This document shows, piece by piece, positions 19 through 13,925 of a stretch of 58,693 nucleotides of DNA. Position 1 is the first letter of the stretch; each line of letters begins with the position of its first letter. Location of the stretch: positions 1 through 58,693 of IMG/VR virus record IMGVR_UViG_3300035698_012504; one strand, 5' to 3'. This stretch comes from a virus. A program made the position numbers and the translations under genes. The notes beneath the pieces are model-generated. The model saw only the letters and a program-made list of their open reading frames with translations, ran no database searches and was not told where the DNA came from.

Positions 19-26
19 GAGGATGT

Positions 27-389: not shown

Positions 390-808
390 TAATGGATATG
401 ATTGATACTGAAGTTAATAATGGATACCTTATTAGGCGTACATTAAATCAAACCTTAACGAAGAGTCAGATATTTAAATGGATAGCAACATATATAGAGG
501 TTGAATCGACTAGAAGTGTAAAAGTATATACTTCATTTAATAATATAGATATTATATTAACCGGCATGAAAGGACTTCATCACATAACAGTGAGTATTAC
601 TGGGAAAACTTATATAGTCGATAGATATAATCACCCTAGATTTGCACCAGATAAGATTAATCCTATTAATATTATTATGGAGTTTTATTATACAAGCCCC
701 CCTCATAAATTATTTGTTGTTAGAGATAGATGGTTTAAATACGATGTGACCCCTTCTCAACATTCAATAAATTTAACTGATATGTTAATGGGAGGAATCT
801 GTATATGA
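386..808 (+). CDS. tandem-array small protein family member (140 aa), tail DMLMGGICI
   Basis: ATGA overlaps at both ends. Acidic N-terminus MIMDMIDTE. Confidence 0.85.
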   Translation: MIMDMIDTEVNNGYLIRRTLNQTLTKSQIFKWIATYIEVESTRSVKVYTSFNNIDIILTGMKGLHHITVSITGKTYIVDRYNHPRFAPDKINPINIIMEFYYTSPPHKLFVVRDRWFKYDVTPSQHSINLTDMLMGGICI

Positions 809-1116
809 TAGTTGATATGTTGACAATCGATTCATCGATGTTTGTATCCACTATGACAGAACACAGCTATAGTCTATACTTAGATAACTTAATTATATCG
901 TTTAGACCAGATAATCCTAGATATCCCCACCACCTCGTATTATCCCTCTGTTCATATGATTATGACGGAATAGATATAGAATTAATCAAATATGCAAACT
1001 TTCACTATGTTTATGAGGTAGATGTATTTGATAATATTACATTTGAACATGTAAATAATATATGTAAATCTATAATATGTACGTTGGATATTATCAGGAG
1101 AGGGATATCAGTATGA
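805..1116 (+). CDS. tandem-array small protein family member (103 aa), tail LDIIRRGISV
   Basis: ATGA overlaps at both ends. GGGAGGA lies 9 nt upstream of the ATG. Confidence 0.85.
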   Translation: MIVDMLTIDSSMFVSTMTEHSYSLYLDNLIISFRPDNPRYPHHLVLSLCSYDYDGIDIELIKYANFHYVYEVDVFDNITFEHVNNICKSIICTLDIIRRGISV

Positions 1117-1535
1117 TGGGTTATGTCGGACCTATGTCAAAACAAGATAGGAAATATTTAAGCTCTTTCCCACATGATCTAAGAACTAATTTTATAGCAA
1201 GTACGCTAATACGATTTGGATTTAAAAGGAAAACAATTGAAGATATGGATAGGACTGTTTTAAATCTATCTAGTAGTTTTTATGTACCTGGATCAACATA
1301 TAGTAGAATTGTATCGATTCGTATTAATGGTAGAATGTGGAACGGATACACATATAGCCCTATACCTGAAGGGTATCATGCTAGAATAAAAATAACACTT
1401 AATGATGATGTCATGTATATAACGAGGCGAGATAGCCCGTATGTATACATATTTAGTGCTCCTCCGTGGCCTAAGAAAGGAAAAGATAAACAAATTCATT
1501 TGTTAAATATACTAAAGTTAGGAATCTGCATATGA
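1113..1535 (+). CDS. tandem-array small protein family member (140 aa), tail LNILKLGICI
   Basis: Start moved from ORF-track 1077 to ATG 1113, which forms ATGA with the upstream stop. AGGAGAGGGA lies upstream. Confidence 0.8.
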   Translation: MMGYVGPMSKQDRKYLSSFPHDLRTNFIASTLIRFGFKRKTIEDMDRTVLNLSSSFYVPGSTYSRIVSIRINGRMWNGYTYSPIPEGYHARIKITLNDDVMYITRRDSPYVYIFSAPPWPKKGKDKQIHLLNILKLGICI

Positions 1536-1759
1536 ATTACCCATCTATGAGGGAACTAAGTAGATATATAATGGATAATATAGCGATTGATGGATATAGA
1601 ATATCTAGCAATAGTAAAAATGGAATAATAGTTAATATGAATGAAACTAAGATCTCTATTTTAGATAGTGAACATTATTGGATTAGACTAGAGGATTATA
1701 ATAATAAACCTAAAAGAGTCTATCTCTTGGATATATTATCCCAAGGAGTAGTGATATGA
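1532..1759 (+). CDS. tandem-array small protein family member (75 aa), tail LDILSQGVVI
   Basis: ATGA overlaps at both ends. Confidence 0.8.
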   Translation: MNYPSMRELSRYIMDNIAIDGYRISSNSKNGIIVNMNETKISILDSEHYWIRLEDYNNKPKRVYLLDILSQGVVI

Positions 1760-2126
1760 AGCTTGCTCTGTTACGTGCTCTATATAATATTAATTTCACT
1801 GAGCACCTAATGGAGAATGGTGGTAATGATGTAATCTTTAAATATACAAAACCAGAAATTGATGATGATAGTAAACCATGTAGAGTATATGTTAGTGTCA
1901 CTGAGCCAAGCTATACTGGATTAGGTGGGATAAAGTGGCATTGGGACCACCAATTGATAGAGTAGTTGTAGAACTATATCGAGATTGGGATCTATTAAGA
2001 TGTTCGTATATGTCTCTTGTAGGTATGAGTAAATTTGGATATATTTATCAGGTTACAGATGTTGATTTTAAAATCACTAAAGATATATTCATTATGGACG
2101 TCCTAAAGAGAGGAATAGTAATATGA
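1756..2126 (+). pseudogene. tandem-array family member interrupted by a frameshift (1756-1965 plus 1935-2126), tail MDVLKRGIVI
   Basis: The 5' part has an ATGA-coupled start but no family tail. The 3' part has the tail and an ATGA junction but no coupled start. The frames differ by -1 and the joined length is about 124 codons. The -1 frame is open from 1905. Confidence 0.6.
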
Positions 2127-2329
2127 TCTTTGATAACGATAATAAGATACCATTTGAACATCAATCAAGAGTATATGAAGTTTATTTAGATGTCTATGAT
2201 ATGTTTCATGGTGGGCACGCAGTTCATCCCCTAATTATAGCAGGACTCCCATTTCATATTAACCCTTCCCACTTCAACTTTGGAAGAATAGCGAATTGGA
2301 TATATCATACAGGAGGAGTTGTAATATGA
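2123..2329 (+). CDS. tandem-array family, MIFDN subfamily member (68 aa), tail ANWIYHTGGVVI
   Basis: N-terminus MIFDNDNKIPFE. His/Pro-rich centre. ATGA overlaps at both ends. Confidence 0.85.
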   Translation: MIFDNDNKIPFEHQSRVYEVYLDVYDMFHGGHAVHPLIIAGLPFHINPSHFNFGRIANWIYHTGGVVI

Positions 2330-2688
2330 GCGTCCAGCAAAGAGAAGAAGAACTATTCGATTTATTACAACGTTCAGGATTTAAGAAAAGAAGTCATCGC
2401 ACATCTATGATGGATTTTAGAGAAGAATCGTTTGATTTTGGTAACTATGTAGTAATTACTCTAAATGAAAATGGGTATATTGATGTGGAGATAGTAGATA
2501 AATTAGATATAGATAAATCGAGATACTACTATGTTAAAAGAATGGATAAAAGTAGTTTTAAAATGAGAATATATGCGAGTACTTATCCCGTGGCACCAGA
2601 ACGTATATTCGAATTTAAAATAGGAATAGATAAATTAGGAAAATTAATAAATACGTTTGATGTATTTAAACAAGGAGCAATATTATGA
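2326..2688 (+). CDS. tandem-array small protein family member (120 aa), tail FDVFKQGAIL
   Basis: Start moved from 2296 to ATG 2326 (ATGA overlap, AGGAGGAG upstream). Confidence 0.8.
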   Translation: MSVQQREEELFDLLQRSGFKKRSHRTSMMDFREESFDFGNYVVITLNENGYIDVEIVDKLDIDKSRYYYVKRMDKSSFKMRIYASTYPVAPERIFEFKIGIDKLGKLINTFDVFKQGAIL

Positions 2689-2906
2689 TATACATAGATA
2701 CTATGGATCGTTATATAATTAAGAATTATGATGAGTATGTTAGTAAAATACATACAGACATACTTACCACAATCCAACATAAACTTAATAAAGGTTATGA
2801 TGAGTGGACACACTATGAATACTTTCTTAGTCGTCATCTTATAAGATCTATTAATAGCTCGAACATATGTAGTTGAATATTTGCAAAACAAGGAGTTGTG
2901 GTATGA
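2685..2906 (+). pseudogene. tandem-array family member with an in-frame TGA at 2874-2876; the family tail IFAKQGVVV* continues in the same frame
   Basis: The ORF 2685-2876 lacks the tail. Ten codons further on in the same frame come QGVVV and the ATGA junction to the next gene (2903). Confidence 0.6.
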
Positions 2907-3361
2907 CTGAAAGAGGTATAATTAATGTATTAGATTCTTTACAATTCAACAACTCTAAAATATCTGGATCTTTTGCTGCCCCTATTAATGGAAGGGGATT
3001 TGCTCATATGAATCCAGGTCCTCCAACAGCACGATTTACATTCAGAGATAAAAATAGAATATCACTATCAACTACAATTTCAAAACCACAGATGATTGAT
3101 GTAGTATCAAGAAGAACCCATTTACTCGGAGGAATATCAAGACGTGGCCTAGTTGTAGAATGTTGGTTATACATACACTCTGATATAAATGATTATTATC
3201 TTTACTTTGTCGTACCATTTAATGAATCGACATTCACTGTTTATTTCACTCATAAATATAATGAGAAGGATAAAGATCATATTGATAGGGTTGGAACATT
3301 GTTTAGTAGATCAAAACCTATATTCATTCTAGATGTATTGAAGCGAGGAGTCGTGATATGA
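2903..3361 (+). CDS. tandem-array small protein family member (152 aa), tail LDVLKRGVVI
   Basis: Start moved from 2873 to ATG 2903 (CAAGGAG upstream, ATGA motif). Confidence 0.8.
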   Translation: MTERGIINVLDSLQFNNSKISGSFAAPINGRGFAHMNPGPPTARFTFRDKNRISLSTTISKPQMIDVVSRRTHLLGGISRRGLVVECWLYIHSDINDYYLYFVVPFNESTFTVYFTHKYNEKDKDHIDRVGTLFSRSKPIFILDVLKRGVVI

Positions 3362-3687
3362 TGTATACAGATGGATCAGATATGCTATATACATTTACAT
3401 TATCTGACGTAATAACTGGTGTAAAGGGTAGATCGTTTGATTTCATTATAAAAATAGATGAATACCCAGACTTTGTTAACAAAGGGCATACAAGATTAAA
3501 AAAAGTATCTCTTTATTTCTCAGTGTTTGGTAAAACATGTACTATTGATTGTATGTTAAACTCTAAATTCCCAAATATATTCTTATTTAATAATCTCCAT
3601 TATATTGTGTTAGTATATAACAATGGAGTTACTATGCCAACTTCAGTTAACACATTTAATATAATATCTCATGGTATCGTAATATGA
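3358..3687 (+). CDS. tandem-array small protein family member (109 aa), tail FNIISHGIVI
   Basis: ATGA overlaps at both ends. N-terminus MMYTDGSD. Confidence 0.85.
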   Translation: MMYTDGSDMLYTFTLSDVITGVKGRSFDFIIKIDEYPDFVNKGHTRLKKVSLYFSVFGKTCTIDCMLNSKFPNIFLFNNLHYIVLVYNNGVTMPTSVNTFNIISHGIVI

Positions 3688-3965
3688 TTGTAGATACTAC
3701 TGATATGAAAGAGCTAGGTATTGGTGTATGTATCTCAGAAGGGTTATGGGTAGATACATTTCACACCAAAGATATAATGCTAACTTTATACCGTTATATA
3801 GATGGAGGATCAATTACATCCATAACTAGAGATCAGGCTGAATTGGTCAGACATCATGGTAGAGTATATACATTTGATTTATTTGATACGCATATTATAT
3901 CATCTGCTCATCATAATGGATTAATTACTCCACTCAACATGATAAAGAGAGGGATTGTAATATGA
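3684..3965 (+). CDS. tandem-array small protein family member (93 aa), tail LNMIKRGIVI
   Basis: ATGA overlaps at both ends. N-terminus MIVDTTDM. Confidence 0.85.
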   Translation: MIVDTTDMKELGIGVCISEGLWVDTFHTKDIMLTLYRYIDGGSITSITRDQAELVRHHGRVYTFDLFDTHIISSAHHNGLITPLNMIKRGIVI

Positions 3966-4189
3966 TATTTGACAACGGCAACGAGTTATTATTTGAAGAT
4001 TGTCTACCAGTGTATGATGTGTATTTTAAAATATCTGATGTTTTTGGTATACCCCTCCGTATTAAATTTCCCCTTCCAAAAAATAAATATGGAAATCCCA
4101 AAGTTTTATATTACCTTCCGACGCTCCCTAGAATACATATCTCAATAATATTTAAGTTGATATATTATAGTAAAGGAATTAATATATGA
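3962..4189 (+). CDS. tandem-array family, MIFDN subfamily member (75 aa), tail LIYYSKGINI
   Basis: N-terminus MIFDNGNELLFEDC. Pro-rich centre. ATGA overlaps at both ends. Confidence 0.85.
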   Translation: MIFDNGNELLFEDCLPVYDVYFKISDVFGIPLRIKFPLPKNKYGNPKVLYYLPTLPRIHISIIFKLIYYSKGINI

Positions 4190-4488
4190 TATATGAAGAT
4201 ACTACAGATGCCCTAATGGGGGTGGAATATAATCCCGCAGAAGAATGTATTAAACTTAGCTATGGTAAGGAATCATTTTCACATGTAGATGTTGCTCTTT
4301 ATAGTGATGGTGGATTCGGATTTAGAATATCTAGATACCATTATATGAATATGTTGTCGTGTGTTACAGTAAAACGATCATACCGACAAAGGTTCGAATA
4401 TATATTTAAGACTGGATGCCATGAGCAATTTAGAAAGAAGCGATATGTTAATCTGATGGATATCTTCAACAGAGGAGTTCCTATATAG
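4186..4488 (+). CDS. tandem-array small protein family member (100 aa), tail MDIFNRGVPI
   Basis: ATGA overlap at the start. N-terminus MIYEDTTD. The TAG stop overlaps the next GTG start (TAGTG). Confidence 0.85.
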   Translation: MIYEDTTDALMGVEYNPAEECIKLSYGKESFSHVDVALYSDGGFGFRISRYHYMNMLSCVTVKRSYRQRFEYIFKTGCHEQFRKKRYVNLMDIFNRGVPI

Positions 4489-4712
4489 TGTATGTAGATG
4501 TAAAAGTTAATATGATGCTTAGTGCCGTAATGTACAAAGATGCTGGAGATTTTCGCGACTTGTGTGTTCATAATTATACTAGACCACTAGCCATTAAACC
4601 AATTAGATATAGTGGATATGGTAGGGATATGGGTTATACAGCATACATTAGAGGTTTTAGATTTAAGGACGTATTTAACCAAGTAATGAAGAGAGGAATA
4701 GTATGGAAATAG
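4488..4712 (+). CDS. tandem-array small protein family member (74 aa), tail FNQVMKRGIVWK
   Basis: GTG start overlaps the upstream TAG. The junction reads ATGG instead of ATGA, so the tail runs 2 codons past the thyX ATG. Confidence 0.7.
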   Translation: MYVDVKVNMMLSAVMYKDAGDFRDLCVHNYTRPLAIKPIRYSGYGRDMGYTAYIRGFRFKDVFNQVMKRGIVWK

Positions 4713-5485
4713 TAGAACCGAAAGTATTTTTAATAGCAGAAACTAAATTAGATAATGAGGGCCTTCTTGAATATCTCAAGGATCTTAACGTATTAGATTA
4801 TAGCTGGAGTGCCCCGTCTGATTCAGAGGCGCTATGTGAGATGATGGGAAGATTGTGTTATAGATCATTCAAGCCTGGTCTTAATCCCAATGTTACAAAA
4901 GTAAGGACCGGTAATGATGTATACTTAAAGAACATTATAAACACTGGGCATGGGTCAGTTTTAGAACATGCTAGTGTAAGTTTTATATTCAAAGACGTAT
5001 CTCGAGTATTCACGCATGAGCTTGTTCGACATAGATCAGGGGTAGCTATATCTCAAGAGTCTCTTAGATTCGTTAGGTTAGATAAGCTTAGTGCGTATGT
5101 CCCGATACAGATAGAAGAGAATGAAGAAGCAATGTCTTTGTTCATGGATACGTTTGATAAACTTGAAGAGGTGCAAAAACAACTCGCTGACATTTACGAT
5201 ATAGAGAACACTGATGACTTTGCTAGGAAGAAAGAATTAACCTCTGCATTCAGGAGAGTTGCCCCTATTGGATTAGCAACTACCATAGGGTGGACATGTA
5301 ATATGCGAGCACTAAGACACATAATCGAATTAAGAACTAGCCCACATGCAGAGATAGAACTTAGAGTAGTATTCGCAAAAGTATTTGATATAGTGAAAGA
5401 TAAATACCCTAATATATTTGGAGATTATAAAGTAGAGATGGTAGATGGTATACCGTGGGTGCATACTACGGAGGAGAAGATCTAA
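4703..5485 (+). CDS. thyX: flavin-dependent thymidylate synthase ThyX
   Basis: ThyX signature RHRSGVAISQESLR plus GHGSVLEH. AGAGAGGAA RBS lies inside the upstream tail codons. Confidence 0.9.
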   Translation: MEIVEPKVFLIAETKLDNEGLLEYLKDLNVLDYSWSAPSDSEALCEMMGRLCYRSFKPGLNPNVTKVRTGNDVYLKNIINTGHGSVLEHASVSFIFKDVSRVFTHELVRHRSGVAISQESLRFVRLDKLSAYVPIQIEENEEAMSLFMDTFDKLEEVQKQLADIYDIENTDDFARKKELTSAFRRVAPIGLATTIGWTCNMRALRHIIELRTSPHAEIELRVVFAKVFDIVKDKYPNIFGDYKVEMVDGIPWVHTTEEKI

Positions 5486-5501
5486 CATAAGGTAGTGAAT
5501 T

Positions 5502-5818
5502 ATGATATATGTTACTGGATGTATAAACTCAACGTTTTCTGAAAAGTTGATACATGAATCATTTAATAACATCTTAATATTATTAGACTTCATAGATGAT
5601 GATGATTATATGAATTATATCCTTGAGTATGGTATTAAGATTTATCCAATTTGTCCCATTCGATTTGAACTCTATTTAATTATAGACACTCCCCTCAGAT
5701 AGATATTCATTTCACACAAAGTCCAAAAATATCTGTAGTGTATACTAGTAAAGGTATACGTGTACCAGTCATTAGCTTTCATTTAATTGATATATTTAAG
5801 AGAGGGATAGCCATATAA
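5502..5818 (+). pseudogene. tandem-array family member interrupted by a frameshift (5502-5702 plus 5669-5818), tail IDIFKRGIAI
   Basis: The N-terminus MIYVTG is in one frame. The -1 frame is open from 5669 and ends with the family tail FKRGIAI* at 5816-5818. Confidence 0.55.
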
Positions 5819-5828
5819 AGGAGATAGT

Positions 5829-6077
5829 ATGCACATAGATGAAGACGGATTATACAATGAAGTTGCTCGTTATATTAGAACAAGGAATGATTTATCATTA
5901 GGACTTACTGTTATGAATATAACAAATGGTAAATTATTAATAGTAGTAGTTAATGACCCATCTAATAGAGGAACGCGGTTTAATCATGTAGATAATCTTA
6001 AAGAAATACTACCCAAAGTAATTCATTATTTCATATTAGTGTATATGGATGTTATGAAGGAAGGAATAAATATCTAA
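5829..6077 (+). CDS. tandem-array small protein family member (82 aa), tail MDVMKEGINI
   Basis: AAAGGAG RBS. The stop overlaps the next start as TAATG. Confidence 0.8.
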   Translation: MHIDEDGLYNEVARYIRTRNDLSLGLTVMNITNGKLLIVVVNDPSNRGTRFNHVDNLKEILPKVIHYFILVYMDVMKEGINI

Positions 6078-6451
6078 TGGATATGTATATGAGAACTCCT
6101 TTAATAAGACCATGTAGAGAAGAATATGATCATAGTTTTAGTACGAGAATATGTCACGCATGGATAAGAACTAAAACTAATTCATTTATTCACTTCCAAG
6201 TATCTGTTTCTCCAACTAACTCTACAGACAAATTCAAGCTGATGATGTTTTTGACAACAGATGATAAAATCAATGAAATAGGGACACGGGCATGGGTAGA
6301 AGAAAAACAAATATTAAGTATAGGAGCATCTAGGATGTTTGAATTATACTATGGGACCAGACTACAAAATCCTCTTATCATTCAGGGAATTTTTAAAAAA
6401 GGGGTATGTATCAATTCGAATGATTTTTTAAACGGAGGAATCGATATATGA
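6077..6451 (+). CDS. tandem-array small protein family member (124 aa), tail DFLNGGIDI
   Basis: TAATG overlap at the start and ATGA overlap at the end. Confidence 0.8.
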   Translation: MDMYMRTPLIRPCREEYDHSFSTRICHAWIRTKTNSFIHFQVSVSPTNSTDKFKLMMFLTTDDKINEIGTRAWVEEKQILSIGASRMFELYYGTRLQNPLIIQGIFKKGVCINSNDFLNGGIDI

Positions 6452-6810
6452 TATTTATATCTCCACCAGAAGATGGATTATATTCAGACTCAATTGTTAG
6501 GATAGAGCTTGTACCACACTCATCTAATCGCAGATATAAATTTATTGCTAATATTCCATCTAAACTAGATGATGTTTTATGTTCAATTTACGTCAGAAAA
6601 AAATCCCCATGGTGCCGAGACGATATAATAATAATATCATTCAAGCATCATAGATGTTATTTTCAAATATCTACTTTTAGTGGGTATGAACCAACTAAAG
6701 TATTTACTAAACCTAAAGTACAAACACTAATAACTAAACAGGGATGCAAATCAGAAGAAACTTATAGGGATATGGGTAGAATGTTTAGATGTGGAGGAAT
6801 CTCAATATGA
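6448..6810 (+). CDS. tandem-array small protein family member (120 aa), tail MFRCGGISI
   Basis: ATGA overlaps at both ends. ACGGAGGA upstream. Confidence 0.85.
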   Translation: MIFISPPEDGLYSDSIVRIELVPHSSNRRYKFIANIPSKLDDVLCSIYVRKKSPWCRDDIIIISFKHHRCYFQISTFSGYEPTKVFTKPKVQTLITKQGCKSEETYRDMGRMFRCGGISI

Positions 6811-7037
6811 TATTCGACAACGGTAATAAATTGTTATTTAAAGATTGCTCGTTAGTATATGACTATCTTAAATTATATAATTACATTCACCTTCACCCTC
6901 ACCTTCACCCTCACCTTCACCTTCACCCTCACCCTCACCCTCACCTTCGCCCTCACTCCCGCCTTCCCCTTCACCCTCACCTTCAACCCGAAAAATTATT
7001 TAACTGGGTGTATAATAAAGGAGGAGTTGTGATATGA
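6807..7037 (+). CDS. MIFDN subfamily member with a (His-Leu/His-Pro)n repeat core (76 aa), tail FNWVYNKGGVVI
   Basis: Start moved from 6789 to ATG 6807 (ATGA overlap). Near-identical paralogue at 8556-8786. Confidence 0.85.
   Translation: MIFDNGNKLLFKDCSLVYDYLKLYNYIHLHPHLHPHLHLHPHPHPHLRPHSRLPLHPHLQPEKLFNWVYNKGGVVI
6888..6983 (+). repeat. in-frame hexanucleotide repeat CACCYT (16 units, degenerating at the 3' end) encoding HLHPHLHP...
   Basis: Read directly: cac ctt cac cct cac ctt cac cct ... inside CDS 6807-7037. Confidence 0.9.
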
Positions 7038-7432
7038 TATTTGATACGACGTGTGAATATAACATGTATCAGTATGCATATGGAATGACTACACGTAAGA
7101 ATACAGTGACTAGAGAACATACTAGAATTACTATCCGTTCTCTTAGAGGTTATTGTTTCACATTCGAAAATCTAAGACATCCTCCGAAAGAATATGAAGG
7201 GCATTTTATATCGAGGGACGTTGAAGAGTTTTTAATAATTTATAAAGTAGATAGGATTACAGATGTTTATTACGATTTTATAAGAATAGGGAAAGTAGTG
7301 AGAGGGAAGAATCATTTAGTACGAAATGGAAAGAGAGAAATAATAATAACAACTGGTGTAAATCATACTACATCTGTTCCCAATGTATGTACAATTATAT
7401 TGGCGCTTTGTAGGAAAGGAACAGTCATATGA
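7034..7432 (+). CDS. tandem-array small protein family member (132 aa), tail ILALCRKGTVI
   Basis: ATGA overlaps at both ends. AAAGGAGGAG upstream. Confidence 0.85.
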   Translation: MIFDTTCEYNMYQYAYGMTTRKNTVTREHTRITIRSLRGYCFTFENLRHPPKEYEGHFISRDVEEFLIIYKVDRITDVYYDFIRIGKVVRGKNHLVRNGKREIIITTGVNHTTSVPNVCTIILALCRKGTVI

Positions 7433-7647
7433 TATTTGATAATGATAATAAAATGTTGATCGGAGATCCTACTAAAGCTTATAATACATATTGTTATATT
7501 AATACTCACACATGGGCAATTCAATATCTTAGTATGCATCTTCATACTAAATATCTTAATCTTACTCTTTTCCCACATTCTCGATTCCATCCTAGATTAG
7601 GAACCACATACAAATGGATAATTGAAAATAAAGGGGTCGTGATATGA
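7429..7647 (+). CDS. MIFDN subfamily member (72 aa), tail KWIIENKGVVI
   Basis: N-terminus MIFDNDNKMLIGD. His-rich centre. ATGA overlaps at both ends. Confidence 0.85.
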   Translation: MIFDNDNKMLIGDPTKAYNTYCYINTHTWAIQYLSMHLHTKYLNLTLFPHSRFHPRLGTTYKWIIENKGVVI

Positions 7648-8006
7648 TATTTGAATCGGTTAACATTGATTTGTTTTGGAGAGATGGATTACATTTGAGA
7701 ACATTAAAACATGGTTATACCCACTTCTTTAGAGAAACTTACGTTGATAAAATATTTATGCATGATACATTTATAGGAGATTTATTACTCGAATGTATCC
7801 TTGTCAACCATATAGATTATATAAGAATACGAATTCCAACATTTCCATATAGATCCATGACATATAAATTTGATATGGGTACCGAGATACTCATTCGATT
7901 TGGATCTGGTAATATATTCTGTACGCAGACAAGTAAAAAAGAAGAAAAAATTAAGTGGTTTCAATTTGGAACTTTAGATATCATGACTAGAGGGGTAGTT
8001 ATATGA
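7644..8006 (+). CDS. tandem-array small protein family member (120 aa), tail LDIMTRGVVI
   Basis: ATGA overlaps at both ends. The N-terminus MIFESV is shared with the member at 9960. Confidence 0.85.
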   Translation: MIFESVNIDLFWRDGLHLRTLKHGYTHFFRETYVDKIFMHDTFIGDLLLECILVNHIDYIRIRIPTFPYRSMTYKFDMGTEILIRFGSGNIFCTQTSKKEEKIKWFQFGTLDIMTRGVVI

Positions 8007-8251
8007 TTTATGTATATGATGCATCAGATTCATTACAAGGTATAAGATTAGATGATATTGAATTTTATATATCATCGGATGCAGTATGTGATATGTGTAA
8101 GAGAACAGATATTATGTGTGATAATCAATGTGCTATTTACTTTAATTCATGGCCATTTACAGAGGTGACCAAAGAGTTTTATGTTCCACCACGACCAACC
8201 ATCCCTCTTATGTATAATTGGGTGAGGAGACAGATAGGAGCTGTTGTATGA
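8003..8251 (+). CDS. tandem-array small protein family member (82 aa), tail YNWVRRQIGAVV
   Basis: ATGA overlaps at both ends. The NW tail resembles the MIFDN subfamily. Confidence 0.8.
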   Translation: MIYVYDASDSLQGIRLDDIEFYISSDAVCDMCKRTDIMCDNQCAIYFNSWPFTEVTKEFYVPPRPTIPLMYNWVRRQIGAVV

Positions 8252-8559
8252 TATATTTTACAAATGACACCCAGGGCGGGATGCAACAACATAATATAGA
8301 TGTCTACGTTAAAGATGTGTTACAGTTTTATAGACAAATCTATGATTTTGAACCTTACTATAATATACTAGATCCTATATTAAAGTATGCCCCAATATGT
8401 AGATATACTAGAGATGCTATATTATTTACACAAGAGGTATCCCCTGGTCTTTTTGGGGTTGTGATTAAAGAAGAACATCAAGAATTTCATGGAGTTAAAG
8501 TTACATTGTCTTTTATATGTGGATGGGTAATGCATCAACAACAAGGAGTAATTATATGA
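8248..8559 (+). CDS. tandem-array small protein family member (103 aa), tail VMHQQQGVII
   Basis: Start moved from 8218 to ATG 8248 (ATGA overlap, TAGGAG upstream). Confidence 0.8.
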   Translation: MIYFTNDTQGGMQQHNIDVYVKDVLQFYRQIYDFEPYYNILDPILKYAPICRYTRDAILFTQEVSPGLFGVVIKEEHQEFHGVKVTLSFICGWVMHQQQGVII

Positions 8560-8786
8560 TGTTTGATAACGGTAATAAATTGTTATTTAAAGATTGCTCG
8601 TTAGTATATGACTATCTTAAATTATATGATTACATTCACCTTCACCTTCACCTTCACCCTCACCTTCACCCTCACCTTCACCTTCTCCCTCACCTTCTCC
8701 CTCACCCCCGCCTTTCCCTTCACCCTCACCTTCAACCCGAAAAATTATTTAACTGGGTGTATAATAGAGGAGGAGTAATAATATAA
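8556..8786 (+). CDS. MIFDN subfamily member with a (His-Leu/His-Pro)n repeat core (76 aa), tail FNWVYNRGGVII
   Basis: Start moved from 8517 to ATG 8556 (ATGA overlap). Near-identical to 6807-7037. Confidence 0.85.
   Translation: MMFDNGNKLLFKDCSLVYDYLKLYDYIHLHLHLHPHLHPHLHLLPHLLPHPRLSLHPHLQPEKLFNWVYNRGGVII
8637..8732 (+). repeat. in-frame hexanucleotide repeat CACCYT (second copy)
   Basis: cac ctt cac ctt cac ctt cac cct ... Same length and register as 6888-6983. Confidence 0.9.
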
Positions 8787-9139
8787 TGTATGTAGATTGT
8801 ATGGATAAGGATATTTATCCAGAAGCCATTTAATTAGGATGTTCAAATACATATGATAAGAGTGGAGATACATGCGATCTAATGTTTTGCAACTTCAGTG
8901 AAAAACATCCATATGAATTTCTTATGAAATTAGGAATATCTGATATAAGAATAAAAATATCATATCCAGTTGGAGAGCGAAGAGTAGTTAATTTAATGAT
9001 ACTTGGACTAAAGAGCGGTGATGGAATATATGTAAAGTTCAGCGCACTGAAGACAATAACAATTATGTCTGAAGATGGGGAACGCAAATGGAATGATTAC
9101 ATGGGTTGGTTTTTACAGCAAGGTATATATATTAAATAG
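8786..9139 (+). pseudogene. tandem-array family member with an in-frame TAA at 8831-8833, tail WFLQQGIYIK
   Basis: The TAATG-coupled start gives MYVDCMDKDIYPEAI*. The same frame then continues without further stops into ORF 8882-9139. Total length is 118 codons, typical of the family. Confidence 0.55.
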
Positions 9140-9182
9140 TGACAGAAGGAATCTATTTCACACAACCAAAAAGGAGAGAAGT

Positions 9183-9692
9183 GTGAAGAATATTCATTGG
9201 CCCAAGGCGTGCATCTATATTTTTCTTTTACTGTTTTTATTACTTGCTAATGGGGAAATTGTAGGCGAGTTGAAAAGACCTATAATAGAATCCCAATTGA
9301 GTGCTGCGATAACAATTCCAGTTGTTATATTAGGTTTAAGTCAGAGCATATTCTTGGGATGGCTCATCGGGGCCATCGTCTGCTCATCTATAGGATTTAT
9401 GAATAATCCAATTGAACGTGTAATTGAAGAATTTGATAAAAAAGGAATACGAGCATATTATACAAATATGATATCTTTTTACGGGCTCATTATATTAACA
9501 CCATATAATTTATTTCTGTACTTTTGGCCAGTAGACGCAACTACTACGTTTATATTTGGAAACATTATGTTTTGGGCTGTATCTAGTATTATAATTTATA
9601 AGAATCTATGGGAGAACGTGAAGATTGACAACTTGGTTAAGGAGTGGTTCTTATGCAAGCCCTATCAGATATGTTTAAAATCTCAAAGCTAG
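9183..9692 (+). CDS. multi-pass membrane protein (169 aa) embedded in the array
   Basis: GTG start 9183 preceded by AAAAGGAGAG. Several hydrophobic segments (IYIFLLLFLLLA, ITIPVVILGLSQSIFLGWLIGAIV, GLIILTPYNLFLYFW, IMFWAVSSIIIY). ORF-track start 9075 rejected. Confidence 0.65.
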   Translation: MKNIHWPKACIYIFLLLFLLLANGEIVGELKRPIIESQLSAAITIPVVILGLSQSIFLGWLIGAIVCSSIGFMNNPIERVIEEFDKKGIRAYYTNMISFYGLIILTPYNLFLYFWPVDATTTFIFGNIMFWAVSSIIIYKNLWENVKIDNLVKEWFLCKPYQICLKSQS

Positions 9693-9949
9693 CAGTCGCT
9701 GTATTCATTCTAATAAATGTACTACATGTATTGATGTTTGTTGTAGCTATACCTATAGTAGTTATGTTGTACACTAAACTTAAGCTTATGGGAACTATCC
9801 CAGAGGATGGGATTATACCACTTATAGTATTATTTGGGGGTGGTGCTACTGTTGGCTTAGCATTTTCGTCTATGAAAAAGAAAATTTTAGAGTGTGTGGT
9901 ACCTGAATCTATGCATAATGAAAATAACCCGATAGTGGATGAACTATAA
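9653..9949 (+). CDS. small membrane protein (98 aa), two predicted TM helices
   Basis: ATG 9653 lies 8 nt after AAGGAG. Hydrophobic stretches LAVAVFILINVLHVLMFVVAIPIVVML and IIPLIVLFGGGATVGLAF. Confidence 0.65.
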   Translation: MQALSDMFKISKLAVAVFILINVLHVLMFVVAIPIVVMLYTKLKLMGTIPEDGIIPLIVLFGGGATVGLAFSSMKKKILECVVPESMHNENNPIVDEL

Positions 9950-9959
9950 GGATAAATCC

Positions 9960-10289
9960 ATGATATTTGAATCTGTTAAATCTATTAGCCCATTTAATAG
10001 TAGTAATATAACTAAATACCCATTTGGAGAATCTTTAGTAACATGTCAAGTAGATTATAATCTTAGAAAGAAGTTTAGGATAGGGATAACTGTAATAAAT
10101 CATAACACATATTATAAAGAAAAGGTAATTGTGATTTCCTATTTCCAAACAGATGGTAAGATTAGAAGTGCTGAAATAGGGCCTATACAAAAATCATCAT
10201 TTAGATCCTATTTTACCACTAAAATTATTACACATGGTGAAATCATTAATGCTTTTCTTAAACTGACGGGTAATGGAATAAGTATATGA
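9960..10289 (+). CDS. tandem-array small protein family member (109 aa), tail FLKLTGNGISI
   Basis: Start moved from 9939 to ATG 9960 (MIFESV, as in member 7644). ATGA overlap at the 3' end. Confidence 0.8.
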   Translation: MIFESVKSISPFNSSNITKYPFGESLVTCQVDYNLRKKFRIGITVINHNTYYKEKVIVISYFQTDGKIRSAEIGPIQKSSFRSYFTTKIITHGEIINAFLKLTGNGISI

Positions 10290-10611
10290 TAGTAGATGGG
10301 TTAATCATGGGATCCAACTCATCAGAAGTTAGACTTCAAAAAATGATAATATCTGGTAGCCTCAAACCAGGACAAGAATATATATCTATTATTGATCTTA
10401 CAAAAAAAGAGTAGTATTTTTCATTAGATTTTATGGTGCGCTGGTCTCAGGGCCATTTGATCCACATCAATCCTATATCTCGGTGAGCAGATACATAGAG
10501 ATCGTAGATGTAGACGGTGGATTTAAATTAAAATATATACGAGAAAAATTTAAAACACTATTGATTGGAAATCTATACATTATGATATCGAAACGAGGGA
10601 TTCTAATATAA
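10286..10611 (+). pseudogene. last array member, split at an A7 tract: 10286-10414 (42 codons) plus the -1 frame 10396-10611 ending in the family tail YIMISKRGILI
   Basis: ATGA-coupled start MIVDGL. The 0-frame stops at TAG 10412. The -1 frame is open from 10396 and carries the tail. The joined length is about 108 codons. Confidence 0.6.
10402..10408 (+). other. A AAA AAA slippery heptamer / homopolymer (candidate -1 frameshift or indel site)
   Basis: The 0-frame reads aca aaa aaa gag tag. Phasing fits X XXY YYZ, with a 0-frame stop 1 codon downstream. Confidence 0.5.
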
Positions 10612-10621
10612 AGGAGAGAAA

Positions 10622-11548
10622 ATGACAGGCCGTAATGTAGATATCGCGGAACTATTATCTAGAGTAAAATCAACACTCTCTACTAATGTAGATGAGACTA
10701 TTGACATTCCTACCATTGCTGAACCAGAACCACCGAGGGCAAAGAAGTCTACAATTTCTAGAATTAAAGATAGTGGGTTATCCATAATATTAAATCCAAA
10801 GAATATATTGGGTCGATATAGAGTTAGACCAAATCATAGATTGTCTGCTTTGGGAGTAGATGCCGAGGATATACCATCTGTTAATAAATTTGAAAGAATA
10901 GATAGTATTTTTAGAAATGATAATGAGCACGATAGAATTGATATTGAGCTACTTCAATTAAAGATGGATCTCGCAGCAGGTACAGTAAAAGCAGTTGAAC
11001 CCAAATCATCAGAGAAGGTGATATATTTATCCCCTACTGTCCCTAGTGAACTTGATAGCTCATTATACTCATATGATGATCAAGAAGATCAATTAATGGA
11101 ATTTTCAAAATACTATTGCGAATGCGCCATTGAGAATGGATGGAAGATATTATTAAATACATCAAGTGCTGATCCAATAATATGGAGAAAACTTAGAGAT
11201 ATGTTTGGAGATAATATAATCCTAGCAGATGGTAATAGTCTGCGTCAAAGTGTAGTAGATAATGGATGTAAAATATTATTCATTGCAGGAGGAAGTACAG
11301 GAGCAGTTAACGATATTGAACGGATATATGATGAATGGAATACATATCAGTGTGGAAGCACAATTATATATCATGCCGTTTCATTTGGCGGAGTATATGA
11401 TGTGAATGGCGAAATAATTTATTCTCTTGGAGGAGAAGGAGTAGAATATATAAGGGACATTACAGATTCTCGTCATAGATCTCCAATGAGTAGAGCTATT
11501 ATGAGTAAGTTTTTTGAATTTGTCACAGAAAGATACTCTAGGTTTTAG
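10622..11548 (+). CDS. hypothetical protein (308 aa)
   Basis: AAAGGAGAG RBS. Long ORF with no recognisable motif. Confidence 0.75.
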   Translation: MTGRNVDIAELLSRVKSTLSTNVDETIDIPTIAEPEPPRAKKSTISRIKDSGLSIILNPKNILGRYRVRPNHRLSALGVDAEDIPSVNKFERIDSIFRNDNEHDRIDIELLQLKMDLAAGTVKAVEPKSSEKVIYLSPTVPSELDSSLYSYDDQEDQLMEFSKYYCECAIENGWKILLNTSSADPIIWRKLRDMFGDNIILADGNSLRQSVVDNGCKILFIAGGSTGAVNDIERIYDEWNTYQCGSTIIYHAVSFGGVYDVNGEIIYSLGGEGVEYIRDITDSRHRSPMSRAIMSKFFEFVTERYSRF

Positions 11549-11560
11549 GAGAGAAACGCA

Positions 11561-12328
11561 ATGAGAAGGAAAGAAGTGTTTGTCATAGGGCTTGGAAATC
11601 CTGGGAACGCGGCCTCAATAGATTCTAGGCATAACGTTGGACAACTTGCCGTCGGTAGAGCACTTGCAATATATGGTGACTTACGTCCTCCAGGATCTGA
11701 GTCTCATAGGGACCGAATACAAAATGAAGATATTAAATTAAAATTGAGAAGAGCACCTATGTCAGTAAAAGATACAAGTATATTAAAATTTGGAGAGAAT
11801 CGAAGATCATATAAATATTACAGATCAACCGTGCTGCTCTATGGAATGACCATCAATTTTATAGAACCGGTTAATGTATATATGAACAGTTCTGGAAGAT
11901 TTATACGTGCGCTTAGATTAGATACAGATGAGTTTCTAGAAAATTTACTTATTATTCATGATGATATAGATTTACCAATTGGACGAGTGAGATTCCGTAC
12001 TGGGGGAGGGGACGGGGGACACAATGGAATAAAGAATATACGAGTAAATTTAGGAGATGATTTCTCTAGATTAAAAGTAGGAGTTGGAAGACCAACAGAT
12101 GATACAGTAGAACAATATCTAACTAGAGAAATGTCACTTAAACATAGGAAGCATATTAATAAGGTAATAGATACTATATTGAAAAAGTGTATGCTCGATT
12201 GGGCATTATATGGAACAGCGCATTGTTCTGTTAAGTACAACAAACTATTTGTTAATGGAAGTGGTAATGTTACTACATGGAAGAAACATCAAAAGGAGCT
12301 TGAAGAACTTGTGCGAAAAGAAGTCTGA
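11561..12328 (+). CDS. pth: peptidyl-tRNA hydrolase (255 aa, with an insertion and a C-terminal extension)
   Basis: Pth motifs VIGLGNPG..SRHNVG and HDDIDLPIGRVRFRTGGGDGGHNGIKNI. Confidence 0.85.
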   Translation: MRRKEVFVIGLGNPGNAASIDSRHNVGQLAVGRALAIYGDLRPPGSESHRDRIQNEDIKLKLRRAPMSVKDTSILKFGENRRSYKYYRSTVLLYGMTINFIEPVNVYMNSSGRFIRALRLDTDEFLENLLIIHDDIDLPIGRVRFRTGGGDGGHNGIKNIRVNLGDDFSRLKVGVGRPTDDTVEQYLTREMSLKHRKHINKVIDTILKKCMLDWALYGTAHCSVKYNKLFVNGSGNVTTWKKHQKELEELVRKEV

Positions 12329-12356
12329 AGACACACCAACTAATGCATTAAAAGAA

Positions 12357-12839
12357 ATGATTGAAAAACGCGGGGAGATATCTGGAATGGCCCAAAAGAG
12401 CTCCAATGTAATAAGAATAATGATGTCTCTATTGGCATCAAGAGCATTGGATGTTTCAAATTCTATGGCAGCCCTTCATGCAGTGAATGATTTGTATGAC
12501 GGCGACACAGAAGAAGCTATGAAAAGTAGACGGAATGAGTATGTGAAACAATATCTATTAGCAGTTAAGTCATTTAAATCATTAGAAAGAAAAATACATG
12601 ACGATGTTGCTCCAACATTTTTTGATAATGTTGCAGTGCTTTTTCCAGATGAAATATTCACGTTGTTCCGAGATGAGATGTTAGTATATAAGGAAAGAGA
12701 ATTAGGGTTACCTGTTGACCCATCAGAAGTCCCATCACTTGATGAAATGAGAGCATTCTTTAATGTATTTCCAGAAGAGTCATTACGAAGTAGTATAAAT
12801 GATAGTTTTAGTCCACTTACTGGATCAGATGAAGATTAA
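12357..12839 (+). CDS. hypothetical protein; start uncertain (12357 or 12387)
   Basis: ORF-track start 12210 would overlap pth by 119 nt. ATG 12387 has GGGGAG upstream. Confidence 0.6.
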   Translation: MIEKRGEISGMAQKSSNVIRIMMSLLASRALDVSNSMAALHAVNDLYDGDTEEAMKSRRNEYVKQYLLAVKSFKSLERKIHDDVAPTFFDNVAVLFPDEIFTLFRDEMLVYKERELGLPVDPSEVPSLDEMRAFFNVFPEESLRSSINDSFSPLTGSDED

Positions 12840-12854
12840 GAAGTAATTATTCGT

Positions 12855-12886
12855 GTCTGGGGCTCTCTAGTTAGAGGGTCCCAGAC
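12855..12886 (+). terminator. stem-loop (14 bp including 2 G-U pairs, 4-nt loop) after a stop codon
   Basis: GTCTGGGGCTCTCT agtt AGAGGGTCCCAGAC. No clear U-tract. Confidence 0.45.
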
Positions 12887-12900
12887 ATAATTAGCAGTAT

Positions 12901-12930
12901 CAACAATAAATATATTATTTTTTATTGTTG
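12901..12930 (+). terminator. perfect 10-bp inverted repeat CAACAATAAA/TTTATTGTTG with a 10-nt T-rich loop
   Basis: Read directly. AT-rich stem, so it may be a terminator or an operator. Confidence 0.35.
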
Positions 12931-12939
12931 AAAATATAA

Positions 12940-12949
12940 TGAGGACAAA
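12940..12949 (+). promoter_or_regulatory. TGAGGACAAA motif, site 1 (47 nt upstream of ATG 12996)
   Basis: Identical 10-mer at 37518, 43814 and 56005. Three of the four sites are in the rare intergenic gaps. Confidence 0.45.
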
Positions 12950-12995
12950 CTATTAGATGTATGATAGTTCGAAGTTACAATGTGAGGAGAGTAAA

Positions 12996-13595
12996 ATGAA
13001 AAGAATCTTAGCAAGTTTTCTTATTGTAATCGCCAGTATATTTATACTATCTGGTTGCAAAACGCCATCAGCGGTCCAAGATGCGAATCAGGTATCGATA
13101 ATGTATCTACATTTAATTCAAGAGGATGTAAATATTACAATTGATGCATTGTCTGAAGCAGCTAAAGAAGAATCTACAAGATATTATGATTTATGGTTAG
13201 AGGGTACTGAGAAATTAATTATCAGCAATTCAATGACTCCACAAGAAGCCATAGATGATTATAAAACAGCATTAGAGAGCGCAGCCACTCAGGTAGATGC
13301 CGCCAGTGACACGTATGACGATCTATCAAGAGAAATAAAGAGCGAAATTCAGAATAAAATAGTTAGAGCACAGAAATTAGCAGAGAAAATAGCAGAATAT
13401 CATCAAAGTGGTAGCATTTCGGCTGAAGATTTTGATGAAATTCTAAATGAAAGTGCAGAATTTGCAATTGAGATGGCAGAAGTAAGAAAAAATAGAGAAA
13501 AAGCCGTTGAATCTGCAAATGATGGCAAAGGTAGTGATTTATTGAATATTATTAAAAATAATGTGCTAAAAGGAATGGTTCCTAAAGAAAAATAG
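12996..13595 (+). CDS. lipoprotein (signal peptide with lipobox LSGC), helical and acidic
   Basis: MKRILASFLIVIASIFILSG|C. GAGGAGAG RBS. ORF-track start 12957 rejected. Confidence 0.75.
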   Translation: MKRILASFLIVIASIFILSGCKTPSAVQDANQVSIMYLHLIQEDVNITIDALSEAAKEESTRYYDLWLEGTEKLIISNSMTPQEAIDDYKTALESAATQVDAASDTYDDLSREIKSEIQNKIVRAQKLAEKIAEYHQSGSISAEDFDEILNESAEFAIEMAEVRKNREKAVESANDGKGSDLLNIIKNNVLKGMVPKEK

Positions 13596-13611
13596 GAAAA
13601 AGGAGTAGAAA

Positions 13612-13911: not shown

Positions 13912-13925
13912 CTGAGGTAAGTAAT

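What the first reader, a model, noticed from the sequence alone, without database searches (positions are those of the whole stretch)
6888..6983. In-frame CACCYT hexanucleotide repeat encoding (His-Leu/His-Pro)n inside two array genes
In 6807-7037 and again in 8556-8786 (repeat at 8637-8732), 96 nt consist of the hexamer CAC-CTT / CAC-CCT repeated 16 times, degenerating at the 3' end. The translations are HLHPHLHPHLHLHPHPHPHLRPHSRLPLHPHL and HLHLHLHPHLHPHLHLLPHLLPHPRLSLHPHL. The other three MIFDN copies are His/Pro-rich at the same place but not repetitive, so the repeat looks like an expansion of that segment. Regularly spaced His residues suggest metal binding. A pure pyrimidine-rich microsatellite on the coding strand is also a potential slippage or recombination hotspot.
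Basis: partly seen in the sequence, partly recalled or inferred. Interest (0 to 1): 0.6.

Follow-up and report, generated by a model that had tools for sequence, protein, structure and literature searches.

The report
His-Leu/His-Pro microsatellite in duplicated phage gene
Two recently duplicated copies of a tiny phage gene with no known relatives each carry a real 96-base six-letter DNA repeat, read as 16 alternating histidine-leucine/proline pairs. It most likely arose by replication slippage and acts as a loosely constrained histidine-rich spacer, a curiosity rather than a new kind of system.

Summary
TRF finds period-6 arrays of 16.7 copies at 6886-6985 and 8635-8734, the only strong microsatellites in the window. 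They lie in two 231-nt paralogous genes (6807-7037 and 8556-8786; 17 differences, no indel).

Only the His frame links the conserved MIFDN N-terminus to the FNWVY..GGVVI C-terminus. The Pro-Ser, Gly-Glu and Lys/Arg-Val frames close just outside the repeat. All 25 His codons are CAC, although the phage uses CAT 78% of the time. A non-repeat paralog carries CATCTTCATACT at the homologous site. The tract is therefore a DNA-level slippage expansion that predates a junction-to-junction cassette duplication.

AlphaFold gives no structure for the tract. The two copies show no excess divergence in the repeat, and no sign of purifying selection on it.

Copy A is identical in 6 assemblies and copy B in 4. 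One 644-nt contig carries a 14-unit mosaic allele at the B locus. It could be real slippage or inter-paralog exchange, or an assembly chimera.

The family has no homologs among 1.84 billion representative proteins. Metal binding is plausible by analogy with (HX)n motifs but untested.

Verdict: an ordinary coding microsatellite with an unusual reading frame. Interest is low to moderate.

The parts
6807..7037 (+). MIFDN-family gene copy A (76 aa). Its ATGA start overlaps the stop of gene 6448-6810, and its stop overlaps the ATG of gene 7034-7432.
   Evidence: GGAGG lies 9 nt upstream of the ATG
6888..6983 (+). Repeat A: 16 hexamer units (12 strictly CACCYT), encoding HLHPHLHPHLHLHPHPHPHLRPHSRLPLHPHL
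8556..8786 (+). MIFDN-family gene copy B (76 aa). It differs from copy A at 17 of 231 nt with no indel, and has an ATGA overlap with gene 8248-8559.
8637..8732 (+). Repeat B: 16 units (11 strictly CACCYT), encoding HLHLHLHPHLHPHLHLLPHLLPHPRLSLHPHL
7429..7647 (+). Non-repeat MIFDN paralog (72 aa). Its ...MHLHT...FPHSRFHPRL... aligns with the repeat and its degenerate 3' part.
   Evidence: (E 1e-10)
7537..7548 (+). Proto-repeat CATCTTCATACT (His-Leu-His-Thr) at the homologous place of paralog 7429-7647
   Evidence: the only + strand match outside the two arrays
3962..4189 (+). Non-repeat MIFDN paralog (75 aa), with a Pro-rich centre
2123..2329 (+). Non-repeat MIFDN paralog (68 aa), with a His-rich centre
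6950..6976 (-). Canonical G-quadruplex motif GGGTGAAGGGGAAGGCGGGAGTGAGGG on the template strand; a by-product of the C-rich repeat
8699..8725 (-). Canonical G-quadruplex motif GGGTGAAGGGAAAGGCGGGGGTGAGGG on the template strand

Best explanation
The tract is a translated coding microsatellite. A short His-Leu/His-Pro seed lay in the variable central segment of a small phage protein of the MIFDN family, which has no known relatives. This seed was amplified at the DNA level by replication slippage of a CACCYT unit to about 16 units. The whole 231-nt gene cassette was then duplicated by recombination between the conserved gene-junction sequences (AGGAGG..ATATGAT) that link genes in a translationally coupled array of small genes. 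The result is two 76-aa proteins: a conserved 27-residue N-terminal part (short hairpin plus helix), a 32-residue unstructured (His-X)16 spacer, and a 17-residue C-terminal helix whose coding sequence contains the ribosome-binding site of the next gene.

Shown here: the repeat is real, the reading frame is the His frame, the origin is at the DNA level, the expansion preceded the duplication, and no RNA structure is detectable. Inferred: the spacer is tolerated and only loosely constrained in sequence. Its dense alternating histidines would give it pH-dependent charge and divalent-metal affinity as a chemical property. Whether the phage uses that property is unknown. The interleaving of CTT and CCT units leaves no pure run longer than 18 nt, which keeps the array fairly stable. 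Any slippage changes only the spacer length, never the frame.
For: The repeat is real and unique in the window.

Frame: only the His frame is continuous with the conserved N and C ends. The PS, GE and KV/RV frames close within about 15 nt of the repeat. The TF frame has no Shine-Dalgarno sequence and is not conserved.

The family is protein-coding. The MIFDN(G/D)NK codons differ synonymously among paralogs (TTC/TTT, GAC/GAT, AAC/AAT, ATA/ATC, AAA/AAG). Paralogs match at E 1e-10 to 1e-12. Both ends have ATGA overlaps with Shine-Dalgarno sequences.

DNA-level amplification: His is CAC 13/13 and 12/12, against CAT 78% in 42 long genes and 66:19 in other array genes. A proto-repeat is present in a paralog.

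Expansion before duplication: both copies have 16 units with the same degenerate 3' pattern and no indel. The duplicated segment runs from junction motif to junction motif.

Loose constraint: 8/96 differences inside the repeat against 9/135 outside (p=0.62). All 8 inside are non-synonymous, including His to Leu.

Disorder: AlphaFold2 pLDDT is below 50 for residues 28-57 with no secondary structure. The same central segment is low-confidence in the non-repeat paralog.

Stability: copy A is identical in 6 assemblies and copy B in 4.

No RNA structure: z = +0.44, +0.20, -1.39 and -0.12. No Rfam family matches. Hexanucleotide repeats in phages are known to be strongly biased to coding regions (PMC6426759).
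Against: There is no expression or protein evidence. Gene callers disagree: the ENA contigs have no gene call at either copy, one JGI contig calls the 76-aa gene, and others call a 35-aa minus-strand ORF inside the repeat. With only 17 differences, selection on the two genes cannot be measured. No relatives exist to test conservation. The same DNA repeat elsewhere in viruses is almost never read in the His frame (2 of 126). Its retention here in two copies could therefore mean it is selected rather than merely tolerated. The AlphaFold2 models rest on a 5-sequence alignment and are low-confidence overall (mean pLDDT 52.7 and 55.7).
Confidence: 0.6

Rival explanations
1. Selected metal- or pH-responsive module. 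The (His-X)16 tract is kept because it chelates Zn2+/Ni2+/Cu2+, or switches charge near pH 6. It could sequester a metal, deliver it to a partner, or assemble with zinc during host takeover.
For: The copies have 13 and 12 His at i, i+2 spacing, with 10 and 8 consecutive HX units. Alternating-His peptides bind zinc, as shown by ITC on an SLC39A7 peptide (PMC7873184). Alternating His/hydrophobic heptapeptides form Zn-binding beta-assemblies (PMC9656882). The His frame of this DNA repeat is rare in viruses (2/126), yet both copies keep it. Two of three non-repeat paralogs are also His-rich at that place.
Against: The uniform CAC codon shows the His residues arose in one amplification event, not by selection for His. 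His is already being lost in copy B (CAC to CTC), and every in-repeat difference changes the residue. One paralog has a single His there. The prolines disfavour the beta-sheet geometry of the designed peptides. No binding was tested.
Confidence: 0.2
2. Decaying or untranslated duplicates. The two repeat-bearing copies are non-functional relics in which a microsatellite expanded freely, and the open frame is retained only because the duplication is recent.
For: Most gene callers skip them. There is no evidence of purifying selection in the repeat. Neighbouring array members do look broken: an in-frame TAA at 8831-8833 and a split gene at 1756-2126. Copy B is followed by one of those broken genes.
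Against: Both copies keep 76 stop-free codons in a 31% GC genome. Both keep a Shine-Dalgarno sequence and the ATGA start overlap. Copy A's stop is coupled to an intact downstream gene. Outside the repeat, 3 of 9 differences are synonymous and the replacements are conservative (I/M, N/D, K/R, V/I). Expansions of a 6-nt unit never break the frame, so an open frame alone proves little in either direction.
Confidence: 0.12
3. DNA-level element. The C-rich tract is kept for what the DNA does. It could form a template-strand G-quadruplex or coding-strand i-motif that pauses polymerases. Alternatively it could serve as a recombination or slippage hotspot that diversifies the array.
For: The only two canonical G4 motifs in 58.7 kb lie in the two repeats on the minus strand, against 0.04 expected. 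G4-aware folding gives -7.3 and -5.5 kcal/mol against -0.3 without. One contig (L134, ERZ27315921) carries a 14-unit allele at the B locus, together with an A-type base just upstream. This fits an out-of-register A/B exchange.
Against: The G4 motif follows automatically from the unit CACCCT. Substitution rate in the repeat is not raised. Sixteen units are retained in both paralogs and in all long assemblies. The tract is not homopyrimidine, so triplex DNA is unlikely. L134 is a 644-nt MEGAHIT contig and may be a chimera of the two copies.
Confidence: 0.06
4. RNA-level anti-Shine-Dalgarno mimic. The UCACCU repeats, identical to part of the 16S rRNA 3' end, pair with the GGAGG sites of neighbouring genes and tune translational coupling.
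For: In the minimum-free-energy folds of both copies, the degenerate 3' units pair with the AGGAGGAG of the next start.
Against: The folds are no more stable than shuffled sequence (z +0.44, +0.20, -1.39, -0.12), and most of the repeat stays unpaired. Copy B has no intact downstream gene to regulate.
Confidence: 0.02

Closest known systems
Coding hexanucleotide microsatellites / dipeptide low-complexity linkers in viral proteins
   Same: Both are tandem 6-nt units that keep the frame and arise by slippage inside genes. The very same (CACCYT)n DNA occurs in more than 119 IMG/VR contigs. Hexanucleotide repeats in phages are biased to coding regions (PMC6426759).
   Different: Elsewhere the repeat is read as (Gly-Glu)n on the other strand (75/126) or (Pro-Ser)n (46/126), inside long ORFs. 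Here it is read in the rare His frame (2/126), inside a 76-aa protein of which it makes up 42%.
(HX)n alternating-histidine motifs (ZIP/ZnT zinc-transporter loops, NDUFB3, S100A9; HX repeat of ATN1/AUTS2)
   Same: His at every second position over 8-10 or more consecutive units. Such stretches bind zinc (PMC7873184). The ATN1 HX repeat is a comparably sized (His-X) tract (PMC9747544).
   Different: In the METTL9-type metal-binding motifs, X is mostly small (A/N/G/S/T). Here X is Leu or Pro. This is a phage protein with no known relatives and no transporter or other domain. It has an evident microsatellite origin. No homology to these proteins was found.
Designed catalytic amyloid peptides (IHIHIQI and Leu/Val variants)
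   Same: Alternation of His with aliphatic residues. Copy B starts with HLHLHLH.
   Different: Those are 7-mers that need an uninterrupted beta-strand. Here proline occupies 4-6 of the 16 X positions, and AlphaFold2 predicts no strand.
His-Pro 'PRD/paired' repeats of Drosophila homeodomain proteins (from my own knowledge, not checked here)
   Same: (His-Pro)n dipeptide repeat encoded by a simple DNA repeat.
   Different: Those occur in eukaryotic transcription factors, and no relation was tested. Here His-Pro is mixed with His-Leu.
Hyperplastic regions of T4-type phages and host-takeover modules of small early genes (context of the array; from my own knowledge)
   Same: Long runs of small same-strand genes without known relatives, next to nucleotide-metabolism and replication genes. 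The phage is distantly T4-like (clamp loader 33-36% identical). Cassette-wise gain through short conserved inter-gene sequences is also shared.
   Different: Here the shared sequence is a Shine-Dalgarno plus ATGA coupling junction inside the coding sequence (21 of 32 junctions), not a promoter/stem-loop cassette. Early expression was not tested.
Bacterial and phage contingency loci (phase-variable simple repeats)
   Same: A simple repeat inside a gene, with at least one candidate length variant.
   Different: The 6-nt unit cannot shift the frame. The repeat is impure (no pure run longer than 18 nt) and almost invariant across assemblies.

Membership tests
Microsatellite / simple sequence repeat | Head-to-tail copies of a 1-6 nt unit, well above chance | tested here: met
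   TRF finds period 6 x 16.7 copies, 77-79% matches, no indels, at both sites. There are 25 dimer matches against 4.8 expected.
Microsatellite / simple sequence repeat | Origin by DNA-level unit amplification rather than amino-acid selection | tested here: met
   CAC is used for 25/25 His, against 22% genome usage.
Coding low-complexity (dipeptide) repeat | The repeat lies in the frame that is continuous with conserved coding sequence on both sides | tested here: met
   Six-frame analysis, paralog alignment and synonymous variation in the N-terminal motif.
Coding low-complexity (dipeptide) repeat | Actually translated | not testable with these tools
   No expression data exist, and gene callers disagree.
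(HX)n metal-binding histidine motif | Three or more consecutive His-X units | tested here: met
   10 consecutive units in copy A and 8 in copy B.
(HX)n metal-binding histidine motif | Binds divalent metal | not testable with these tools
   Supported by analogy only (PMC7873184, PMC9656882).
(HX)n metal-binding histidine motif | His register conserved among relatives | tested here: inconclusive
   The only comparison is copy A against copy B. Copy B has lost one His (CAC to CTC), another position is R/L, and no outside relatives exist.
Contingency (phase-variable) locus | A change in unit number shifts the reading frame or promoter spacing | tested here: not met
   The unit is 6 nt and lies inside the ORF, so all length changes stay in frame.
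Contingency (phase-variable) locus | Length polymorphism within populations | tested here: inconclusive
   16 units in 6 assemblies for copy A and in 4 for copy B. One 644-nt contig has 14 units and a mosaic A/B pattern, and may be a chimera.
G-quadruplex-forming sequence | Four G3+ runs with loops of 1-7 nt | tested here: met
   Minus strand 6950-6976 and 8699-8725, the only two in the window.
G-quadruplex-forming sequence | Folds and has an effect in vivo | not testable with these tools
   Only a G4-aware energy prediction is available.
Any described protein or RNA family | Significant match to Pfam, PHROGs, PDB sequences or Rfam | tested here: not met
   No hits. Only same-phage paralogs were found among 5.8 billion and 1.84 billion proteins.

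The most novel reading that the evidence does not exclude
The (His-Leu/Pro)16 tract is a selected, phage-encoded metal- or pH-responsive peptide module. It could be a zinc/nickel chelator or a metal-templated assembly used during host takeover. Its dosage (two gene copies) and length would be tuned by slippage and out-of-register exchange between the paralogs, with the 14-unit mosaic allele in ERZ27315921 as a real example of that exchange.
Probability: 0.1. Interest if true: 0.6.

Novelty: new member of a known kind. Interest (0 to 1): 0.27.

Why it matters
If the tract is just a tolerated slippage product, its value is as a clean example. It shows a low-complexity spacer being born from a two-codon seed in a fast-evolving phage gene family without known relatives. 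It also shows a whole gene cassette being copied through the conserved coupling junctions of an array. The case carries a practical warning too: three gene-calling outcomes were seen for the same DNA, so such genes are missing from protein databases. If the histidine tract is used, it would be a rare case of a phage-encoded (HX)n metal- or pH-responsive peptide. That could be tested easily with a synthetic 32-mer.

Tried and rejected
1. Looking for relatives to compare unit number all failed.
- megablast to 50,697 phage records found nothing.
- The word-index protein search with the 76-aa protein and with the 5-paralog profile found nothing beyond same-phage paralogs.
- Full HMMER against 1.84 billion representatives returned only the three same-phage paralogs plus two spurious repeat proteins.
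- The search for related loci with the family profile found nothing in IMG/VR or in JGI metagenome contigs.
- The search for related loci with ThyX in IMG/VR found nothing.
- An exact flank search in metagenome contigs found nothing.
- The neighbouring 308-aa gene matched only itself.

2. The (CACCYT)5 scan of IMG/VR gave more than 119 contigs, but none is related to this phage; only the repeat matches.

3. An RNA structure or anti-SD sponge is rejected: fold energies are no better than shuffles and there is no Rfam hit.

4. Faster substitution in the repeat is rejected (Fisher p=0.62).

5. The alternative reading frames (Pro-Ser, Thr-Phe, Gly-Glu, Lys/Arg-Val) are rejected.

6. Assembly artefact for the repeat itself is rejected. 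The same sequence appears in MEGAHIT and JGI assemblies of several samples. The Logan contigs cover the flanks at 100% identity and break at the duplicated segment.

7. The promoter/terminator scan was uninformative, with fewer hits than in shuffles.

8. Sample accessions were not found in the literature library, so the environment and host remain unknown.

9. The AlphaFold2 models of both a repeat copy and a non-repeat paralog were too low in confidence for fold searches.

Full report
**1. What is there.**
Tandem Repeats Finder reports period 6, 16.7 copies and no indels at 6886-6985 and 8635-8734, with scores of 109-135. Every other array in the 58.7-kb window scores 61 or less. A two-unit pattern, CAYCYTCAYCYT with up to 1 mismatch, matches 25 times against 4.8 expected from shuffles. 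Of these, 23 are in the two arrays. The tract is 57-59% C and 84-86% pyrimidine, in a window of 29-36% GC, and carries an A in every unit.

**2. The genes around it.**
- The repeats lie in two 231-nt ORFs, 6807-7037 and 8556-8786. They align without any gap and differ at 17 positions.
- They belong to a run of about 33 small + strand genes. The run covers the first 10.4 kb of the window and continues at least 5.3 kb upstream in a public contig.
- In 21 of 32 junctions the stop of one gene overlaps the start of the next as ATGA. This is preceded by AGG(A/G)(A/G) and followed by TATTTGA.
- Five genes form the MIFDN subfamily: 2123-2329, 3962-4189, 6807-7037, 7429-7647 and 8556-8786. Pairwise E-values are 1e-10 to 1e-12 for most pairs.
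- The similarity between copies A and B starts at ATATGAT and ends at ATAT(G/A)AT. One cassette was therefore copied from junction to junction.

**3. Which frame is read.**
Only the His frame is continuous with the conserved N-terminus (MIFDNGNKLLFKDCSLVYDYLKLY) and C-terminus (EKLFNWVYNKGGVVI). The Pro-Ser, Gly-Glu and Lys/Arg-Val frames close within about 15 nt of the repeat and have no start. The Thr-Phe frame has no ribosome-binding site and no conserved ends. The family is under protein-level selection: codons of the MIFDN(G/D)NK motif differ synonymously between paralogs.

Annotation pipelines nevertheless disagree. The ENA contigs have no gene call at either copy. One JGI contig has the 76-aa gene. 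Two JGI contigs have a 35-aa minus-strand ORF inside the repeat. This explains why the proteins are practically absent from the protein databases.

**4. How the repeat arose.**
- The phage uses CAT for 78% of its His codons (230:66 in long genes; 66:19 in the other array genes). All 13 and 12 His codons of the two genes are CAC. The histidines were therefore copied as DNA, not selected one by one.
- Paralog 7429-7647 carries CAT CTT CAT ACT (His-Leu-His-Thr) at the homologous place. It is the only other + strand match in the window.
- Its FPHSRFHPRL aligns with RPHSRLPLHPHL, the 'degenerate' 3' end of the repeat.
- The 3' part thus looks like ancestral sequence, and the pure units like an expansion next to it.
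- Both copies have 16 units with the same degenerate pattern, so the expansion predates the duplication.

**5. Constraint and stability.**
- Differences between copies A and B are as frequent inside the repeat (8/96) as outside (9/135; Fisher p=0.62).
- All eight inside are at codon positions 1-2 and change the residue. Four toggle CTT/CCT, one turns His into Leu, and one turns Arg into Leu.
- No pure run exceeds 18 nt.
- Public assemblies of the same phage are 100% identical to the window over up to 15.5 kb.
- Copy A's repeat is identical in six assemblies: ERZ27315536, ERZ27315667, ERZ27316076, ERZ27315763, JGI 3300023257 and JGI 3300022890.
- Copy B's repeat is identical in four: ERZ27315536, ERZ27315667, ERZ27316076 and JGI 3300022890.
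- These samples may not be independent, because some ENA assemblies may derive from the same runs.

**6. The one variant.**
L134 is a 644-nt contig from ERZ27315921 with copy-B flanks on both sides. It has 14 units and the A-type base (AAT instead of GAT) just upstream of the repeat. Three readings fit:
- copy B minus its first two units, plus one substitution;
- an out-of-register exchange joining A units 1-6 to B units 9-16;
- a MEGAHIT chimera of the two copies.

Only reads can decide between them. The allele is in frame.

**7. Structure and RNA.**
AlphaFold2 on the five-paralog alignment gives a low-confidence model (mean pLDDT 52.7). It shows a short N-terminal hairpin, a helix at 15-28, no secondary structure and pLDDT below 50 over residues 28-57, and a helix at 61-71. 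The non-repeat paralog gives the same layout, with a low-confidence centre.

RNA folds of both genes and of their 3' halves are no more stable than shuffled sequence (z +0.44, +0.20, -1.39, -0.12). Predicted pairing of the last units with the next Shine-Dalgarno sequence is therefore not supported. No Rfam family matches.

On the template strand, the degenerate part of each repeat forms the only two canonical G-quadruplex motifs in the window. This follows directly from the CACCCT unit.

**8. Relatives and context.**
- There are no Pfam, PHROGs or PDB matches for the MIFDN proteins or for five other array genes.
- Searches of 5.8 billion clustered proteins and 1.84 billion representative proteins return only the three non-repeat paralogs of this same phage.
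- Searches of IMG/VR and JGI contigs found no relatives.
- The phage carries ThyX, peptidyl-tRNA hydrolase, an intein-containing class II ribonucleotide reductase and a T4-type clamp loader. The clamp loader is only 33-36% identical to its best matches, which include cyanomyoviruses and Ralstonia phage RsoM2USA.
- The phage is therefore a distant T4-like virus with no close sequenced relative.

**9. How unusual is it.**
The DNA repeat itself is common. (CACCYT)5 occurs in more than 119 IMG/VR contigs, none related to this phage. By the longest spanning ORF, a heuristic, it is read there as (Gly-Glu)n in 75 cases, (Pro-Ser)n in 46 and His-Leu in 2 of 126. The His reading is the unusual aspect.

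Alternating-His stretches are known metal binders in zinc transporters and other proteins (PMC7873184). Alternating His/aliphatic peptides form zinc-binding assemblies (PMC9656882). An HX repeat of similar size occurs in ATN1 and AUTS2 (PMC9747544). Metal affinity in vitro is therefore likely, but a biological role is untested.

**10. Verdict.**
- 'Expansion of a His-containing segment' is supported.
- 'Metal binding' is plausible but untested.
- 'Hotspot' is weakly supported at best.
- The tract is best seen as a slippage-born, loosely constrained His-rich spacer in a duplicated small phage gene with no known relatives. It is a new member of a known kind.

Noticed in passing
window 1-10414 (continues upstream: L001 4356-5298): An array of about 33 small + strand genes without known relatives. 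21 of 32 junctions are ATGA stop/start overlaps inside a conserved motif, AGG(A/G)(A/G)Tnnnn ATATGATATTTGA. Most products end in a shared peptide, h-h-L-(D/N)-h-h-(K/R)-(K/R)-G-(I/V)-x-(I/V), whose coding sequence contains the next gene's ribosome-binding site. No Pfam or PHROGs hits.
   Followed up: partly
window 6805-7037 vs 8554-8786: The duplication of the repeat-bearing gene runs exactly from one junction motif (ATATGAT) to the next (ATATRAT). This suggests that array genes are gained as cassettes by recombination between the conserved coupling junctions.
   Followed up: partly
window 8786-9139: The gene right after copy B starts with a TAATG overlap (MYVDCMDKDIYPEAI) and has an in-frame TAA at codon 16 (8831-8833). 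The called gene (8882-9139) is the in-frame remainder, so this is probably a broken array member.
   Followed up: partly
window 1756-2126: ORFs 1756-1965 and 1935-2126 overlap in different frames. The second ends in the canonical ...IMDVLKRGIVI* overlapping the ATG at 2123. It looks like one array gene split by a frameshift, either a pseudogene or a programmed shift.
   Followed up: no
window 4703-5485: A ThyX (flavin-dependent thymidylate synthase) gene sits in the middle of the array of small genes without known relatives. It overlaps the preceding array gene by 10 nt.
   Followed up: no
window 40573-43803: A class II (B12-type) ribonucleotide reductase interrupted by an intein with a LAGLIDADG homing-endonuclease domain. 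The flanking exteins match phage RNRs in two pieces.
   Followed up: no
window 46574-48415: A 613-aa protein with an N-terminal C2H2-like zinc finger and DUF7487. It matches PHROG homing/HNH endonuclease families strongly.
   Followed up: no
window 11561-12328: A phage-encoded peptidyl-tRNA hydrolase, 255 aa, longer than the Pfam domain.
   Followed up: no
window 6950-6976 and 8699-8725, minus strand: The only two canonical G-quadruplex motifs in the window (0.04 expected). Both lie on the template strand inside the degenerate 3' part of the repeats.
   Followed up: partly
L134 (ENA ERZ27315921 k141_56301), corresponding to window 8161-8816: A 14-unit allele at the copy-B locus, with an A-type base just upstream of the repeat. 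It could be slippage plus an SNP, an out-of-register A/B exchange, or an assembly chimera.
   Followed up: partly
L127 811-918 (-), L133 1024-1131 (-), L128 1418-1648 (+): Public gene calls for identical DNA disagree: no gene, a 76-aa + strand gene, or a 35-aa minus-strand ORF inside the repeat. As a result the repeat proteins are nearly absent from protein databases.
   Followed up: yes
ENA contig ERZ27315536 k141_424224 vs window: This 74.8-kb contig is 100% identical to window 1-15485. By its coordinates it ends near window position 18657 and extends about 56 kb upstream of the window start. The window therefore comes from another assembly, and the phage genome exceeds about 115 kb.
   Followed up: no
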